From: a virus
Taxonomy: Duplodnaviria; Heunggongvirae; Uroviricota; Caudoviricetes
Length of the DNA: 11,684 nt
IMG/VR virus record: IMGVR_UViG_2585427784_000006
Strand: one strand, 5' to 3'
A model generated the notes under the pieces. The model ran no database searches and had not been told where the DNA came from. It saw only the letters and a program-made list of their open reading frames with translations. The position numbers and the translations under genes are program-made. Below, piece by piece: positions 689 to 8,033 of the stretch (the first letter of the stretch is position 1; every line of letters starts with the position of its first letter).

Positions 689-1264
689 CTACGGCAGTGC
701 TGGCCATTCAATATCCTGTGCAGTTGACGTATCAACACGGTTCAGCAACACCCGATACTTTTTCCAGGCTTCCAGCAATGAGGTTTCTTCCTCCGTTGCG
801 ATTTCCAGATCTACAGCATCCTGAAGTGGCGCAATATGCTCACTGGCTACCTGCATCAGGCTGTTTTTTGTTTCTTCCGCCTCTCGGATCCGGAACAGTT
901 TTTCTGCTTCTGCATCTTTCACCCAGGCTGTGCCGTTCCACTTCTGAAACTCCCCTTCCGGCGATAACCAGGTAACATTTTCCGGTAACGGACCGAGTTC
1001 AGAAATAAATAACGCGTCCCCTGACGCTACGTCATAAACCGTTTTACCCCGATGGTCTTCATCGAGATGCCACGATGCCTTATCACTGTTGAAAACAGCC
1101 ACAAAGCCAGCAGGAATATCTGGTGGTGCAATATCGGTACTGTTTGCTGGCAGACCTGTATGAGGCGGAATATATGCGTCACCTTCACCAATAAATTCAT
1201 TAGTTCCGGCCAGCAGATTATAAATTTTTATGGTCCGTGGTTGTTCACTCATTCTGAATGCCAT
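689..1264 (-). CDS. tfaQ: Tail fibre assembly protein (Tfa family)
   Basis: Track ORF 689..1270 begins at a TTG; first ATG is at 1262-1264, giving 191 aa starting [18 protein letters not shown], which I recognise as lambdoid Tfa. Its start overlaps the end of a short upstream stf-like frame, as at stf/tfa junctions. Confidence 0.85.
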
Positions 1265-1999: not shown

Positions 2000-3985
2000 T
2001 TACGCCGTACATTTCACCAGGCCGCGGTGATCAACTGGCGCAACACCAGCGTCAATACGCACTTTCGTTGTCACGCCATCCACACTGAAGCCCTCCATCT
2101 GATCAATATATGGCGTATCCACACCGTTGAGATAAGCCACTTCAATCGTATCGGAGCCTTTGGACGCAGCCAGGTAGAAGGTGGTCTGGCTGTTATCATC
2201 AAGACGAGGCTCTGCAATAACGGTCGCAAAATCTTTCACCGGGTTAATAATACCGGCGTTAATGTCAGCCCCCTTGACACTTGAGGAGCGAATGACCTGG
2301 TTAGCAACAGACTCCATCGCCGTCGGTACCAGTACGAACGCAGGACGAATATTCAGATGACGCTCACCCTCTTTCTGAACGCGCATCAACTGGCGGGCTT
2401 TATCCAGCGATGCCACGTCCATTGCCGCGCTCTCCAGTACGTTTGCATGTTTCGCTTTATCGAACAGACTTACATTATCTGTGGAGATTTTCGGGTTAGA
2501 CGTCAGAATGGCATAAACCAGATCGGCAATAGTGGATTTCGCCGCACGGCCCAGCTTCATCGGGACATCGGTCAGCATATTCAGATCATCATTGATAATG
2601 GCCTGACGGGTGATACTGAACAGCTCGCCATAGGTCGCCAGTGCAATAGTGGCCTGTTTATCTCCGGTGGTGACGTATTTATATTCTGCCCCTTCACGCA
2701 CCTGACGCAGAGCACTGAAGCCCCCCATACCCACACGATGGGCAATTTTAAAATCAGACAACTGACCTTTCCGCGTCCACTGTTCATAGGTTTCAGGGGC
2801 ATCTTCCCAGCCCTGCAGAATGGCTTTGTTCGCAACATCCAGCAGAATATTACCGAAGTCAGACGTACTGTGTGTGAACGCCGCACCGACCATCTGCATC
2901 GGGTTATAACTGGAAACACCAATACCACGTTCAGTCAGTGACATACGGGCATATTCACGCAGGGTCATCCCGTTGTAGACATTATCACGTTCAGTTTTTT
3001 CAAACCCGGCGCGCGCCATCAGCGCCTGGCGGATCCCGTCCCCCACAAAATTACCGTTACCGGCATAAATATGAGCCGGGGGATTTTTATTGGATGGCGT
3101 GGACTCGCGCCCCATCTCGTTCAACAGCTTTTCGCGGGCCTGCTCCAGCGAACATTCAGGATCGGCAAGACACTGAGCCTGCAACGACTGATAGCCGGTC
3201 ATGGCATCCATAGCTGGCTGAAAATATTCACCGCAGTGCGGACATGGCCAGTACCAGCGGCGGCGGTCACCACGATTGTAAAGGGAAAGAATACCAGTCG
3301 TCGGTGGCGCTTCATGAGGCGACTTACGTCGCCATTTGCTGTCGCAGATGTCACGTCCCGGCGAGCTCTCCACCAGAGTCATCCCGGCGGACATAAATGT
3401 GGTGGTACGTTTTGAGGCCAGGGAGAAACCATCACCCTCGCTGTCGATATTCTCCGGAAAACGGTCGTAATCGGTTAAGGCGACAAACCGGTAATCCGAC
3501 GACGACATAATGTTGACCGAGGGCCAACCAATTTTAAGGAACGAGCCATCCCTGAACGTCTTATCATGGACATTATTGTCGTTACGACGTGGACTCATTC
3601 TTTTCTTTACCGCCGCACTGCTTCTGAACGTTCTGTCGAGGCGCTTTTTAGAATGCTCGCGGGCCTTATCTTCGGTCATCTGCACAACGAGCATGTCCGA
3701 AGGATCGCAAACGATGGTATAGACAATCCATCCATCGATCAGACCAATGGTCTTCCCTGTTCGCGCAGGACCAACAAAAATCACCGCATCGTATTCACGC
3801 GATGCCAGGCAGTTCATGGGCTCAATGATGTAGGGTGTCAGTTCAGGATCCCATGGCACCGAGTTACCAGCCCCCTTGGGAACACGCATGAATTTTTTAA
3901 CAGCCTCCGAAATCGGCATGCGACGTGGTGGGGAAAATCCTGCCGATATGTCCCTTCCCAAATTTCGGGCTGATGAAAAACCCAT
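2000..3985 (-). CDS. Terminase large subunit (lambda gpA family N-terminal ATPase); identity of the C-terminal half uncertain, possibly capsid-derived
   Basis: 661-aa ORF, ATG at 3983-3985 preceded by AGGAGG, TAA at 2000-2002. First ~290 aa align by eye with lambda gpA: Walker A-like VGPARTGKT and a WYWPCPHCGEY ... CLADPEC zinc-finger region. The remaining ~370 aa is Ala/Ser/Thr/Val-rich and looks capsid-like rather than nuclease-like. Confidence 0.7.
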   Translation of the reverse strand: MGFSSARNLGRDISAGFSPPRRMPISEAVKKFMRVPKGAGNSVPWDPELTPYIIEPMNCLASREYDAVIFVGPARTGKTIGLIDGWIVYTIVCDPSDMLVVQMTEDKAREHSKKRLDRTFRSSAAVKKRMSPRRNDNNVHDKTFRDGSFLKIGWPSVNIMSSSDYRFVALTDYDRFPENIDSEGDGFSLASKRTTTFMSAGMTLVESSPGRDICDSKWRRKSPHEAPPTTGILSLYNRGDRRRWYWPCPHCGEYFQPAMDAMTGYQSLQAQCLADPECSLEQAREKLLNEMGRESTPSNKNPPAHIYAGNGNFVGDGIRQALMARAGFEKTERDNVYNGMTLREYARMSLTERGIGVSSYNPMQMVGAAFTHSTSDFGNILLDVANKAILQGWEDAPETYEQWTRKGQLSDFKIAHRVGMGGFSALRQVREGAEYKYVTTGDKQATIALATYGELFSITRQAIINDDLNMLTDVPMKLGRAAKSTIADLVYAILTSNPKISTDNVSLFDKAKHANVLESAAMDVASLDKARQLMRVQKEGERHLNIRPAFVLVPTAMESVANQVIRSSSVKGADINAGIINPVKDFATVIAEPRLDDNSQTTFYLAASKGSDTIEVAYLNGVDTPYIDQMEGFSVDGVTTKVRIDAGVAPVDHRGLVKCTA

Positions 3986-3993
3986 TATTCCTC

Positions 3994-4521
3994 CTAGAGA
4001 CTCTCTCCTTCCTCATCAGGAATTAATTCAGCAGCACAAGCCTCGTAGGATTTTTCCTGAAGAGTGTATCGCAGGTCATCAATGGCCTGCTGTACAACGC
4101 CGACGGCCTGAGGAGTCAGGGCGCAATCGCGTTCAAGAACATCCGGAATTGTCTCCAGAACCTGGACGACAGCCTTTCTCATGGACGAATAGACGATGAC
4201 TACTTCATCAACTGGGATGAGTTTTCGCTGCTCCTTTTCCAGCTTGATCCTTTCATTTTCAGACTGGTACCAGTCCTTTCTCTCTTTCGGCTCCATACGG
4301 GATGGATCATGAACAGAGTCTGCTGCCTCATGCTTCACACTAAACAGGGCGGGCCCGACATGCTGCAGGGCGTAAACGGGGTTCCCCCTGACAGTCGCAG
4401 CCACAGGAGTGTTGGCCGCGAGGAGCCGTTTTTTTACTGTGTCCCGGTGAAGCCCAAAGGCCTCGGCGATTTTAAAAACACTCCAGTAATAAGCATCACC
4501 GATCCCGCTCACATTTGACAT
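3994..4521 (-). CDS. nohA: Terminase small subunit (lambda Nu1-like, NohA family)
   Basis: Two in-frame ATGs, at 4531-4533 and 4519-4521; the second has a GGAG at good spacing and gives MSNVSGIGDAYYWSVFKIAEAFGLHRDTVKKRL, an N-terminal HTH like Nu1. Stop TAG at 3994-3996 lies inside the RBS of the large-subunit gene. A cos site lies ~185 bp upstream. Confidence 0.8.
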   Translation of the reverse strand: MSNVSGIGDAYYWSVFKIAEAFGLHRDTVKKRLLAANTPVAATVRGNPVYALQHVGPALFSVKHEAADSVHDPSRMEPKERKDWYQSENERIKLEKEQRKLIPVDEVVIVYSSMRKAVVQVLETIPDVLERDCALTPQAVGVVQQAIDDLRYTLQEKSYEACAAELIPDEEGESL

Positions 4522-4533
4522 AAGCAACTCCAT

Positions 4534-5083: not shown

Positions 5084-5290
5084 TCAGTCAACCACCAGGG
5101 AATAATCCTTCGTATTCTTATCGTGCTTTACTAACGCGGCCTCAATTGCCCTGAATGCTTCCAGAGATACTTGATGTTCTATACATGCAATTACAACATC
5201 CGGGTAACCCATCGAAATGGTGCTATTAAGCATAGTTTTTACACGAACCTGCTCCTGGGAGGGGGCATCAGTGTATTGATCTTTATGCAT
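5084..5290 (-). CDS. Conserved lambdoid right-arm small protein (homologue of the ~68-aa ORF near the lambda right end)
   Basis: 68-aa ORF, ATG at 5288-5290 with GGAG upstream, TGA at 5084-5086. Protein (..[46 protein letters not shown]) and the first ~150 bp downstream closely match the lambda right-end sequence as I recall it. Confidence 0.6.
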
Positions 5291-5585
5291 TTTGTCGCTC
5301 CATTCGTTTGCTCTTCACTTGCGGCTAAAAATATAACGTCAAATCACTCAGCATGAAAGAGTGAAAGTTTCAGCGCGTTTCCCTTACATAATCTGTCGTT
5401 TGTATTCTCTTCAGGCATACCGGAAAGACTAGGTATTGTCACACAACCAATACCATCGACAATCGAGATTTATATCTATTCGGTAATGTTTAAATATAAC
5501 AAAACCCCGTAAAAACGAGGTTTATGGGTAATTTGTATTGTTGAATAGCATCTGATGAGAAATTGATGCTAATACTATAAACATG

Positions 5586-5759
5586 CTAGATTAAATCAAT
5601 CTTGATATCATAGCTTTCAAGACCAGTCATTTTTTCCCGTGCAGTAAACTGGATACTGGTAACTTCTTTCCCGGTCTTTTTCTTAAGCTCAATGATTTTT
5701 TTTGTTATATATTCAGAAATATCTGCTTCTGTTTTTGTTTTTAACTCTTCAATGTTCAT
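5586..5759 (-). CDS. gnsB: GnsA/GnsB family protein
   Basis: Track ORF 5586..5852 has an upstream extension; ATG at 5757-5759 after AGAGGAA gives 57 aa MNIEELKTKTEADISEYITKKIIELKKKTGKEVTSIQFTAREKMTGLESYDIKIDLI, matching GnsA/GnsB. Confidence 0.85.
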   Translation of the reverse strand: MNIEELKTKTEADISEYITKKIIELKKKTGKEVTSIQFTAREKMTGLESYDIKIDLI

Positions 5760-5931
5760 CATTTCCTCTTTTAGTCTGTTATGACTGTCCTGGTACACAG
5801 TAGTGTCAATTATATGGAGCAAACGTATAAAAGATAAGATGAAACATCGCAATAATCAACATACGACGGTCTAAATTTCACACAAACAGATAAAGATGAT
5901 TATCATTTATTATCAATGCATTAGAATCAAA

Positions 5932-6162
5932 TCAATTCAAGAGTCTCATTGCTGCTTCCAGAATTTCTTCTGAAGTTACATGTCGATCCGCTGCTACATA
6001 AATGACTTTATGATCTCCGGTCAGAGATGGAAACCCTGCGGCCATTACAGTAAGGTATGTTTTTTCGCCATTTGGATATTCACGCATGATGGTGTTAACT
6101 CCAGTCATCGCTGGCACTACCACTGCTGGTTCAGAGTTAAAAAAAACTATGATTTTTTTCAT
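5932..6162 (-). CDS. ynfN: Small protein, YmcE/YnfN-like (cold-shock-associated partner of gns genes)
   Basis: Track ORF 5932..6204 begins at a TTG; ATG at 6160-6162 gives 76 aa starting MKKIIVFFNSEPAVV. Sits between cspI and gnsB as ynfN does in Qin. Symbol assigned from memory of length and synteny; weak RBS. Confidence 0.45.
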   Translation of the reverse strand: MKKIIVFFNSEPAVVVPAMTGVNTIMREYPNGEKTYLTVMAAGFPSLTGDHKVIYVAADRHVTSEEILEAAMRLLN

Positions 6163-6433
6163 GATGTTACCGTAGTATGTGAGTATCCATCGAATAGATA
6201 CCAAGCAAAAAAGCTCCCGAAGGAGCCTTCATTTTCACTTTTTTAAATCCAACGACAGACGGCTGGCATTTAAGTATTGTGAAATATTATCAAATGTAAT
6301 CATCATTGATTTACAAAAGATACATTTTGCCCCGAAAGGATTCATGTCAGAAACATCAAAAGATGATGTTCTATACTGGGAACCATGACAACACGGGCAT
6401 CTAAAGTGAATATGGTTTGTAATATTGTCTACC

Positions 6434-6646
6434 TCAAAGCGCCACTACATGAACAGCGGCAGGACCTTTAGGTCCGTTCTCAATACCAAATTCAACTTCC
6501 TGATTCTCAGTTAATGTTTTGAAATCGTTGCTCTGAATTGCTGAGAAATGGACAAACACATCTTTGCTGCCATCTTTCGGCGTGATGAAACCAAAACCTT
6601 TTTCAGGGTTAAACCATTTCACTAAACCAGTCATTTTGTTAGACAT
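6434..6646 (-). CDS. cspI: Cold shock protein (CspA family)
   Basis: 70-aa [41 protein letters not shown]... with RNP1 (KGFGFI) and RNP2 (VFVHF) motifs. ATG at 6644-6646 in an AAAAGGTAATAAT-ATG context typical of cspA-family genes. Sequence matches my memory of CspI. Confidence 0.9.
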
Positions 6647-7009
6647 AATTATTACCTTTTGAAGAAATTAGCCCTTGGGCAGAATGGTCCGAAAAAAAAT
6701 ATCAGAGAGAAAAACCAACAAGGAAATCTCAAGAGGTACAAATAATAAAATTATAACAATGACTGCTTCAGATAAATTTGTAACAAACCAGAACACCATT
6801 AACGCATGATTAACCACCCATAGCAAGGATTACTTTTGTAAAGAAAAAAACAGCAATGAAAGAATAGCTTTATTTATTAATAATAACGTGTCATTCTGAT
6901 TAAGACCTTTTATCTTACCCTTAAGATTTCAGGAATTTTGGCTCATGGAAGAGTCCTTTTTATTTAAATTTTACATTCCGCGATGTAAATGTTCCGATTT
7001 AATATTACC

Positions 7010-8033
<1,024 letters not shown>

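What the first reader, a model, noticed from the sequence alone, without database searches (positions are those of the whole stretch)
5586..6162. gnsB with an upstream ymcE-like small gene: a two-gene cassette in the position lambda uses for bor
A 76-aa gene and a 57-aa Gns-family gene are co-oriented ~170 bp apart between the spanin genes and the conserved right-end ORF. The paralogous ymcE-gnsA pair elsewhere in E. coli has been proposed, as I recall, to act as a toxin-antitoxin-like or lipid-modulating module. Together with cspI this forms a cold-associated moron block in the late operon path.
Basis: partly seen in the sequence, partly recalled or inferred. Interest (0 to 1): 0.4.

Follow-up and report, generated by a model that had tools for sequence, protein, structure and literature searches.

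The report
Qin prophage ynfN and gnsB genes
The two small genes are the already-annotated ynfN and gnsB of the E. coli Qin-type prophage, part of a five-gene cold-shock cargo block, and comparative evidence argues that they are separate passengers, not a toxin-antitoxin-like pair.

Summary
Both genes are real, on the minus strand: a 76-aa gene (5932-6162) and a 57-aa Gns-family gene (5586-5759), 172 bp apart. They lie between the Rz/Rz1 spanins and a homologue of lambda's last ORF (lambdap79), the slot lambda fills with bor. The 76-aa gene is not ymcE-like: BLASTP against K-12 YmcE finds nothing. It is full-length ynfN; K-12 carries a T-run frameshift annotated as 51 aa.

The real unit is cspI-ynfQ-ynfR-ynfN-gnsB, paralogous to chromosomal cspG-ymcF-(ymcE)-gnsA.

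In 26 species-level loci, every gns gene follows csp plus ymcF/ynfQ. ynfN is missing from 12 of them, and YnfN relatives occur without gns in other prophages, plasmids and chromosomes. A conserved terminator follows ynfQ, and a conserved promoter-like block precedes every gns gene.

Best reading: ynfN is expressed by read-through from cold-inducible cspI. gnsB is a separately promoted lipid modulator (more unsaturated fatty acids when overexpressed). YnfN's biochemical function remains unknown, with no known fold or family.

The ymcE-gnsA toxin-antitoxin precedent is itself weak: ymcE is frameshifted or interrupted in several Escherichia species and evolves neutrally. This is known biology and of low interest.

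The parts
5586..5759 (-). gnsB, 57 aa, GnsA/GnsB family
   Evidence: Pfam PF08178 E 2.1e-33 over the full length. Matches PDB 4XO2 GnsA at E 7.9e-20. RefSeq annotation is gnsB. dN/dS 0.065-0.08.
5932..6162 (-). ynfN, full-length 76-aa form; function unknown
   Evidence: RefSeq 'protein YnfN' WP_000720964.1. The N-terminal MKKvIVFFN motif is conserved across the family. dN/dS 0.09-0.17. No BLASTP alignment to YmcE. No Pfam, NCBIfam or PADLOC hit; PHROG 3425 is of unknown function.
6139..6146 (-). T8 run inside ynfN; it is T7 in K-12, which truncates the annotated product to 51 aa
   Evidence: Three-way DNA alignment of the window, K-12 Qin and the K-12 cspG locus.
5831..5859 (-). Promoter-like block (TTGATT-N17-TATCTT, overlapping TTGCGA-N17-TATACG), conserved about 100-115 nt upstream of 29 of the 30 gns genes examined
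   Evidence: Alignment and motif scan of 30 gns upstream regions, covering both gnsA- and gnsB-type loci. Its function as a promoter is inferred and was not shown.
5809..5814 (-). Perfect TATAAT hexamer 50 nt upstream of the gnsB ATG (E. coli gnsB-type loci only)
   Evidence: Read directly from the sequence. It has a weak -35, so the consensus scan did not report it.
5502..5523 (-). Intrinsic-terminator-like hairpin plus T-run that ends the block after gnsB
   Evidence: Terminator scan: 9-pair stem followed by TGTTATATTT.
6206..6227 (-). Conserved terminator hairpin (GGCUCC-UUCG-GGAGCU) plus U6 run just after ynfQ, lying inside the ynfR ORF
   Evidence: Present after ymcF/ynfQ in all nine aligned loci, with a T-A, T.G and C-G series at one stem position. 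Predicted folding energies are -10 to -15 kcal/mol.
6167..6232 (-). ynfR, 21 aa; it reads across the terminator, and its stop codon lies 4 nt before the ynfN ATG
   Evidence: Translation. RefSeq annotation. YnfR-SPA is cold-shock induced (PMC6001520). No ynfR match in the Citrobacter loci.
6235..6423 (-). ynfQ, 62 aa, YmcF-like CxxC...CxxC small protein with an ATT start
   Evidence: Translation. RefSeq annotation. Pfam PF23641 YmcF-like on homologues. dN/dS 0.07-0.15.
6434..6646 (-). cspI cold-shock protein
   Evidence: Pfam CSD E 1.6e-31. RefSeq annotation is cspI.
6407..6792 (-). cspA-type thermoregulator leader of cspI
   Evidence: Rfam RF01766, 112.8 bits (gathering score 78), E 8.2e-29.
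5084..5290 (-). 68-aa homologue of lambda lambdap79 (the 'conserved right-end ORF'); marks the downstream boundary of the block
   Evidence: 79% identity to lambdap79, E 3e-40. PHROG 657.
7010..7507 (-). Rz spanin, with Rz1 embedded at 7060-7332; marks the upstream boundary of the block
   Evidence: Pfam DUF2514 E 7.7e-39. rzpQ/rzoQ annotation in K-12.

Best explanation
The interval holds ynfN and gnsB of a Qin-type defective lambdoid prophage of E. coli. They are the last two genes of a five-gene cargo ('moron') block, cspI-ynfQ-ynfR-ynfN-gnsB. The block is inserted between the lysis cassette and the lambdap79 homologue and terminase genes.

The block works as two expression units and not as a ynfN-gnsB pair.

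Unit 1 starts at the cold-inducible cspI promoter and its cspA-type thermosensing leader. It makes cspI and ynfQ, then meets a conserved intrinsic terminator. Transcripts that read through the terminator carry ynfR and ynfN. ynfN starts 4 nt after the ynfR stop codon, so YnfN is made mainly when cspI transcription surges in the cold.

Unit 2 is gnsB. It has its own conserved promoter-like element about 100 nt upstream and its own terminator. GnsB is a small soluble protein that, when overproduced, shifts membrane lipids toward unsaturated fatty acids by an unknown mechanism, which favours membrane fluidity at low temperature.

Basis of each step. Shown here or in cited papers: gene identities, the conserved terminator, cold induction of YnfR-SPA, similar induction of cspI/ynfQ/ynfN in RNA-seq, the lipid effect of plasmid-borne gnsB, and the separability of ynfN and gns across taxa. 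Inferred: read-through as the route to ynfN expression, the gnsB promoter, and benefit to the host in the cold. YnfN's biochemical role is unknown. My working guess is a stand-alone stress-associated small protein, not a GnsB partner.
For: Identity: 99.8% DNA identity to annotated Qin loci, and the block is present in 2150 of 5426 complete E. coli genomes. Functional temperate phages (mEp460, 2H10, Tritos, HannyBb, PhiR42_1, PhiR63_1) carry the same order: Rz, csp, ynfN, gnsB, 68-aa ORF.

Unit 1: the Rfam cspA thermoregulator lies on cspI. The terminator hairpin after ynfQ/ymcF is conserved, with wobble and compensatory changes. The YnfR-SPA tag lies beyond that terminator, and the tagged protein is strongly cold-induced (PMC6001520). 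cspI, ynfQ and ynfN show near-identical induction (6.5, 5.9 and 5.8-fold) and similar SspA dependence in RNA-seq, whereas gnsB does not occur in that paper's text (PMC11228462).

Unit 2: a promoter-like block is conserved upstream of 29 of the 30 gns genes examined, whether or not ynfN is present. gnsA and gnsB are co-upregulated in late growth without their upstream genes being reported (bioRxiv 10.1101/310961). pCA-gnsB rescues cold growth of a relA fadR strain, and measured gnsA expression raises 16:1/18:1 (bioRxiv 10.1101/2024.03.27.586906).

Separability: csp plus ymcF/ynfQ precede gns in 26 of 26 loci, but ynfN is present in only 14. YnfN-family genes occur without gns. gnsB splits into two allele classes in E. 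coli (614 genomes at >=99% identity, 1501 at 90-95%), while ynfN is 95-99% in 2084 records, so a recombination breakpoint lies between them.
Against: No transcription start, termination or read-through data were available for this locus, so the two-unit architecture rests on sequence motifs and indirect expression data.

The promoter-like block scores only 8-9 of 12 against the sigma-70 consensus, and the standard scan did not report it on the minus strand.

Within E. coli, ynfN and gnsB co-occur almost perfectly (2141 and 2139 genomes). That is compatible with functional linkage as well as with shared descent.

All 14 gnsB-type loci outside the two exceptional Citrobacter strains keep the ynfN-gns order.

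Gns effects are known only from overexpression. Nothing at all is known experimentally about YnfN.
Confidence: 0.68

Rival explanations
1. One reading: ynfN-gnsB is a toxin-antitoxin-like or otherwise obligate two-protein module. GnsB would be the toxin or effector, and YnfN the upstream neutraliser or modulator, playing the role claimed for YmcE with GnsA.
For: Pfam and RefSeq name the Gns family an 'addiction module toxin'. TA surveys place the Gns partner strictly upstream (PMC10790755; PMC6265476). The two genes are adjacent, co-oriented and co-inherited in about 2140 E. coli genomes and in most Citrobacter prophages. gnsB overexpression lowers ATP and raises persister counts (bioRxiv 10.1101/310961).
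Confidence: 0.07
2. One cold-shock operon. All five genes are transcribed only from the cspI promoter. The conserved block upstream of gns is an RNA-level element (leader or processing site) and not a promoter. YnfN and GnsB act in the same cold-adaptation pathway without binding each other.
For: All genes are co-oriented, with no strong terminator between ynfN and gnsB. A microarray cluster groups gnsB with cspB, cspC and cspI (PMC2717919). The order csp-ymcF/ynfQ-...-gns is conserved in 26 of 26 loci.
Against: gnsB does not occur in the text of the RNA-seq paper that lists cspI, ynfQ and ynfN as co-induced. gnsA and gnsB respond together to growth phase without cspG or cspI. The conserved block has -35/-10 geometry with a 17-nt spacer in 29 of 30 loci. 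There is no conserved hairpin in the gns leader (inspection). Rfam finds no known RNA in 5300-6500 at E <= 1.
Confidence: 0.17
3. Phage-centred role. The block lies in the path of the Q-antiterminated late transcript, so it may serve lytic growth (for example late translation or membrane and lysis physiology at low temperature) and not lysogen fitness.
For: It lies directly downstream of holin, endolysin and spanin genes on the same strand. It is present in viable phages. Distant YnfN relatives sit in the same lysis-terminase slot of unrelated prophages.
Against: The block is retained in a prophage that has lost its structural genes in 40% of complete E. coli genomes. A chromosomal paralogue (cspG-ymcF-gnsA) exists outside any prophage. 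cspI has its own host-type cold-shock leader.
Confidence: 0.08

Closest known systems
E. coli K-12 Qin prophage locus cspI-ynfQ-ynfR-ynfN-gnsB (b1552 to b1550)
   Same: Same genes, order, strand and flanks (rzpQ/rzoQ upstream). The DNA aligns along the whole block.
   Different: The window has T8 where K-12 has T7, which gives the intact 76-aa YnfN. It carries the minority gnsB allele (93% aa identity to K-12 GnsB). Downstream it has the lambdap79 homologue and a DUF1441 gene, where K-12 has ydfO/ynfO/nohA.
E. coli chromosomal paralogue cspG-ymcF-ymcE-gnsA
   Same: cspG/cspI, ymcF/ynfQ and gnsA/gnsB are paralogous pairs (78%, 65% and 63-65% aa identity). Both loci share the terminator after ymcF/ynfQ and the promoter-like block upstream of gns.
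   Different: The cspG locus has no ynfN; about 195 bp separate ymcF and gnsA. The annotated ymcE ORF spans that gap and is unrelated to YnfN. Only its 'GAFF' segment matches YnfR's 'GAFL', because both ORFs read the 3' arm and U-run of the same terminator in the same frame.
Lambda bor region (post-lysis moron slot)
   Same: Same genomic slot, between Rz/Rz1 and lambdap79 before cos. It is host-affecting cargo that is not needed for phage growth.
   Different: bor is a single lipoprotein gene on the opposite strand. Here there are five co-oriented genes with cold-shock regulation and no sequence relation to bor.
Type II toxin-antitoxin operons (e.g. relBE, yefM-yoeB)
   Same: Two small adjacent co-oriented genes on a mobile element. 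The downstream gene is labelled 'toxin' in Pfam.
   Different: There is a large spacer with a promoter-like element, no obligate co-occurrence, no antitoxin-like fold, and gns overexpression is beneficial in several screens.

Membership tests
GnsA/GnsB family (Pfam PF08178) | Full-length match to the 54-position family profile above the gathering score | tested here: met
   114.5 bits against a cutoff of 27, E 2.1e-33, residues 1-54. 65% identity to GnsA; matches 4XO2 at E 7.9e-20.
GnsA/GnsB family (Pfam PF08178) | Overexpression raises unsaturated fatty acids and suppresses fabA6 or cold-sensitive mutants | not testable with these tools
   Reported for K-12 gnsB, which is 93% identical (bioRxiv 10.1101/2024.03.27.586906; Sugai 2001 as cited there). 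Not tested for this allele.
   BLASTP finds no alignment at E <= 100. tblastn with YmcE hits only gnsA-type loci and L026.
YnfN family | Sequence identity to annotated YnfN and the conserved family motifs (MKKvIVFFN, YPNGE, TGDH, ASDR..S.EEI) | tested here: met
   RefSeq 'protein YnfN' at 99.6% DNA identity. Family alignment. The profile search finds only 45 representatives among 1.84 billion proteins, and the full-length ones are about 70-80 aa.
Type II toxin-antitoxin module | Bicistronic operon with abutting or overlapping genes and one promoter upstream of the first gene | tested here: not met
   The spacer is 172 bp (189-350 bp in other loci) and contains a conserved -35/-10-like block. 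Transcript data are lacking.
Type II toxin-antitoxin module | Partners co-occur wherever the toxin family is found | tested here: not met
   ynfN is present in 14 of 26 gns loci. YnfN relatives occur without gns.
Type II toxin-antitoxin module | Antitoxin has a recognisable DNA-binding or antitoxin fold | tested here: not met
Type II toxin-antitoxin module | Toxin arrests growth and the cognate antitoxin neutralises it | not testable with these tools
   Needs expression assays. Published gns plasmids act as growth-rescuing suppressors.
Lambdoid moron in the post-lysis slot | Non-essential cargo between the lysis genes and cos/terminase, with its own regulatory signals and variable between related phages | tested here: met
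   Flanked by Rz/Rz1 and the lambdap79 homologue. Lambda has bor there. The block has its own thermoregulator leader and terminators. Content varies between loci.
cspA-type cold-shock transcription unit | Long 5' leader matching the cspA thermoregulator model, upstream of a CSD protein | tested here: met
   RF01766, 112.8 bits against a gathering score of 78, at 6407-6792. CSD domain E 1.6e-31.

The most novel reading that the evidence does not exclude
Two linked readings that the evidence does not exclude.

(a) The conserved terminator between ynfQ and ynfR-ynfN could be a Csp-responsive attenuator. Cold-induced CspI and its paralogues are known RNA chaperones and antiterminators. They could melt the hairpin and switch on ynfN, making the block a self-gated two-stage cold-shock operon.

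(b) The textbook 'YmcE-GnsA toxin-antitoxin system', which has propagated into Pfam, RefSeq names and TA surveys, may rest on an ORF that is not a protein gene. The conserved DNA within ymcE would then be the ymcF terminator plus the gnsA promoter.
Probability: 0.3. Interest if true: 0.35.

Novelty: already known. Interest (0 to 1): 0.15.

Why it matters
It matters little as a discovery. Both genes are annotated in K-12, occur in about 40% of complete E. coli genomes, and gnsB's overexpression phenotype has been known since 2001.

The useful outcomes are corrections:
- The 76-aa gene is full-length ynfN, and the K-12 reference form is a frameshift remnant.
- The functional unit is a five-gene cold-shock block, not a two-gene cassette.
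- The 'addiction module toxin' label on Gns proteins has weak comparative support, so TA-based inferences about Gns neighbours should be treated with caution.

The mechanism of Gns proteins and the role of YnfN remain open, but modest, questions.

Tried and rejected
- YmcE similarity: BLASTP of YnfN against YmcE found nothing.
- Domain libraries for YnfN: Pfam, NCBIfam and PADLOC gave no hits, and the PHROG hit is of unknown function.
- PDB sequence search for YnfN: nothing below E 0.39.
- Exhaustive profile search: only 45 proteins matched, the full-length ones about 70-80 aa, with no link to a larger family.
- The 76-aa ORFs next to YnfN relatives in L006 and L046 are not paralogues of YnfN.
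- Rfam at permissive threshold on 5300-6500 found no known RNA.
- A small uORF reading of the conserved block upstream of gns ('LLIIESF...') was rejected, because loci differ by indels that break the frame.
- A Fur-box reading of 5896-5907: only the 12-nt core matches, the full 19-mer needs more than 3 mismatches, and the site is absent from the K-12 allele.
- Wei 2015 and Sugai 2001 could not be read. What they contain is cited only through other papers.
- An alignment-based pair count of the terminator was abandoned because loop lengths differ between loci. Per-sequence folding was used instead.

Full report
WHAT IS THERE

The window is the late region of a Qin-type defective lambdoid prophage of E. 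coli, read on the minus strand. The 1051 bases around the finding are 99.8% identical to annotated chromosomal loci. The block occurs in 2150 of 5426 complete E. coli genomes.

RefSeq annotation of the best hit and of K-12 gives this order: endolysin, Rz/Rz1, cspI, ynfQ, ynfR, ynfN, gnsB, then a 68-aa ORF and a DUF1441 gene.

In window coordinates, all on the minus strand:
- gnsB: 5586-5759
- ynfN: 5932-6162
- ynfR: 6167-6232
- ynfQ: 6235-6423 (ATT start)
- cspI: 6434-6646
- Rz: 7010-7507, with Rz1 at 7060-7332

The 57-aa product is a full-length GnsA/GnsB family member (Pfam E 2.1e-33; GnsA structure 4XO2 at E 7.9e-20).

The position is also right. The 68-aa ORF at 5084-5290 is 79% identical to lambda's lambdap79. 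In lambda, the segment between Rz/Rz1 and lambdap79 holds bor and lambdap78.

The 76-aa gene is not ymcE-like. BLASTP against K-12 YmcE gives no alignment at all.

It is ynfN in its full-length form. K-12 has T7 where the window has T8 (6139-6146), which is why the reference annotation is a 51-aa remnant. The N-terminal 25 residues missing from the K-12 form include the family's most conserved motif, MKKvIVFFN.

A three-way alignment shows that cspI-ynfQ-...-gnsB is paralogous to chromosomal cspG-ymcF-...-gnsA. The ynfN segment has no counterpart in the cspG locus.

The only resemblance between YmcE and anything in the window is a short stretch. YmcE 'RGAFFIS' and YnfR 'SGAFLLG' both translate the 3' arm and U-run of the same terminator hairpin, in the same frame. 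So if any ORF here is 'ymcE-like', it is the 21-codon ynfR, and only trivially.

ARE BOTH GENES REAL?

Yes. Between E. coli and Citrobacter prophage copies, dN/dS values are:
- ynfN: 0.09-0.17
- gns: 0.065-0.08
- ynfQ: 0.07-0.15
- cspI: 0.015-0.03

IS ynfN-gnsB A UNIT?

I scanned one genome per species with a Gns alignment and obtained 26 loci in Escherichia, Shigella and Citrobacter. I then located CspI, YnfQ/YmcF, YnfR, YnfN and YmcE in each with tblastn.

- A csp gene and a ymcF/ynfQ gene precede gns in 26 of 26 loci.
- ynfN is present in 14 loci.
- ynfN is absent from all ten gnsA-type loci and from two gnsB-type Citrobacter loci (L026, L028).

YnfN-family genes also occur without gns:
- Phage PHB10 has csp, a small ORF, a YnfN homologue and then an unrelated 112-aa gene.
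- The 60%-identical P0042 follows a CSD gene with no gns.
- An exhaustive profile search found only 45 representatives (full-length ones about 70-80 aa) among 1.84 billion proteins.
- Distant members sit in other prophages' lysis-to-terminase slots without csp or gns.
- Others sit in a plasmid-type region beside a TraI relaxase and a Tn3-family transposase, next to HSP20, or next to a YnaE-type cold-shock gene.

Within E. coli the two genes co-occur almost perfectly (2141 and 2139 genomes). Their allele structures differ, however. ynfN is 95-99% identical to the window in 2084 records. gnsB splits into 614 records at >=99% and 1501 at 90-95%. A mosaic junction therefore lies between them.

K-12 itself keeps an intact gnsB beside the frameshifted ynfN.

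REGULATORY ANATOMY

cspI carries a cspA-type thermoregulator leader (RF01766, 112.8 bits).

Directly after ynfQ, and after ymcF in the paralogue, there is a GC-rich hairpin followed by a U-run. It is present in every locus examined, with a T-A, T.G and C-G series at one stem position. Predicted stabilities are -10 to -15 kcal/mol.

In E. coli the ynfR ORF starts just before this hairpin and ends 4 nt before the ynfN ATG. Citrobacter has the hairpin and ynfN, but tblastn finds no ynfR there.

VanOrsdel et al. found YnfR-SPA barely detectable at 37 C and strongly induced by cold shock (PMC6001520). The tag lies beyond the terminator, so cold-induced transcripts do read through into the ynfR-ynfN segment.

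In an independent RNA-seq study, cspI, ynfQ and ynfN show near-identical induction (6.5, 5.9 and 5.8-fold) and similar SspA dependence. gnsB does not occur in that paper's text (PMC11228462).

Upstream of 29 of the 30 gns genes examined, about 100-115 nt before the start codon, there is a conserved block. This holds for both gnsA and gnsB types, with or without ynfN. The block has -35/-10 geometry and a 17-nt spacer: TTGATT/TTGAAT-N17-TATCTT/TATAAC, at window 5831-5859. E. coli gnsB loci add a perfect TATAAT at 5809-5814.

gnsA and gnsB are co-upregulated on entry into late growth, without their upstream neighbours being reported (bioRxiv 10.1101/310961).

A terminator-like hairpin follows gnsB at 5502-5523.

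Rfam finds no known RNA in 5300-6500, even at E <= 1.

MECHANISM

The best-supported picture has two expression units.

Unit 1: the cold-inducible cspI promoter and leader drive cspI and ynfQ. Read-through of a conserved, leaky terminator extends expression to ynfR and ynfN. This read-through is inferred.

Unit 2: gnsB has its own promoter and terminator. This is also inferred.

GnsB's known activity is that multicopy expression raises unsaturated fatty acids. It also suppresses fabA6(Ts), secG-null cold sensitivity, and cold growth defects of relA fadR strains (bioRxiv 10.1101/2024.03.27.586906; PMC10607373). The latter paper states that the molecular basis is still unknown.

The block as a whole is therefore plausibly lysogenic-conversion cargo for low-temperature fitness. 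Because it lies in the path of the late transcript, it would also be expressed during lytic growth.

YnfN's function is unknown:
- No Pfam, NCBIfam or PADLOC hit; the PHROG hit is of unknown function.
- No PDB sequence relative.
- The one confident AF2 model (pLDDT 81; the other four scored 47-64) shows five strands and a C-terminal helix.

THE TA PRECEDENT

The idea that Gns proteins are toxins with an upstream antitoxin traces back to Wei et al. 2015. I could not read that paper. It is cited in PMC8484670 and PMC6265476 and is embedded in the Pfam and RefSeq names.

Comparative data do not favour ymcE being a protein gene. Among ten Escherichia/Shigella representatives, the frame is frameshifted or interrupted in five and lacks the ATG in two more, while ymcF and gnsA stay intact.

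In the pairs where ymcE is open, its dN/dS is 0.7-1.1. The values for cspG, ymcF and gnsA are 0.02-0.12. Its dS is low.

Low dS with neutral dN/dS is what one expects from conserved non-coding signals. The ymcF terminator and the gns promoter-like block both lie inside the annotated ymcE ORF.

VERDICT

The position and the cold-associated moron block hold up. The toxin-antitoxin-like pairing of the two genes does not.

Everything here is already annotated and largely described, so interest is low.

The residual open points are:
- what YnfN does;
- how Gns proteins act;
- whether the conserved terminator is a Csp-responsive attenuator;
- whether the YmcE-GnsA TA assignment should be retired.

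Noticed in passing
ynfQ is a YmcF paralogue with a CxxC...CxxC motif and an ATT start. ynfR is 21 aa and cold-induced.
   Followed up: yes
window 6206-6227 (-); also L015-L040: An intrinsic terminator (GGCUCC-UUCG-GGAGCU plus U6) follows ynfQ/ymcF. It is conserved in all nine loci aligned for this region, with wobble and compensatory changes. ynfR in E. coli and K-12 ymcE both translate across it. It might be a Csp-sensitive attenuator.
   Followed up: partly
L002 2348-2578 (K-12 ymcE) and L030-L040: The ymcE ORF is frameshifted or interrupted in 5 of 10 Escherichia/Shigella representatives and lacks the ATG in 2 more. Its dN/dS is 0.7-1.1, against 0.02-0.12 for cspG, ymcF and gnsA. It is probably not a protein gene, which undermines the 'YmcE-GnsA toxin-antitoxin' annotation.
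   Followed up: yes
window 6139-6146 (-): The T8 run in ynfN is T7 in K-12 MG1655, so the reference 51-aa YnfN is a frameshift remnant of a 76-aa protein. Truncated variants form sizeable clusters in the protein database.
   Followed up: partly
window 5896-5907 (-): The 12-nt core of the Fur-box consensus (AATGATAATCAT) occurs once, in the ynfN-gnsB spacer. About 0.00 matches are expected by chance in the window, but this was a post hoc check. The full 19-mer needs more than 3 mismatches, and the site is absent from the K-12 allele.
   Followed up: partly
window 5586-5931 versus 5932-6162: There is a mosaic junction between ynfN and gnsB. In E. coli genomes ynfN is uniformly 95-99% identical to the window. 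gnsB falls into two allele classes: 614 records at >=99% and 1501 at 90-95%.
   Followed up: partly
window 9304-9696 (-) and 723-921 (-): A second cspA-thermoregulator match (158.8 bits) lies at the position corresponding to cspB in the K-12 Qin map. There is also an IS009 RNA match (RF02111, 226.7 bits) near the tail fibre assembly (tfa) and pin recombinase end of the window.
   Followed up: no
window 2000-4533 (-) and 1-1270: A terminase-like large ORF and a DUF1441 gene sit within about 0.7 kb of the tail-fibre-assembly and Pin recombinase genes. The head and tail structural genes are therefore deleted, so this is a defective prophage. RefSeq marks the terminase, portal and tape-measure genes as pseudogene fragments in the near-identical locus L001.
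   Followed up: partly
L041-L050: Distant YnfN-family members (35-60% identity range) sit beside HSP20, beside a YnaE-type cold-shock gene, in a plasmid-type region (TraI relaxase, Tn3-family transposase), and in lysis-to-terminase slots of unrelated prophages. YnfN thus belongs to a small, mobile, stress-neighbourhood family of unknown function.
   Followed up: partly
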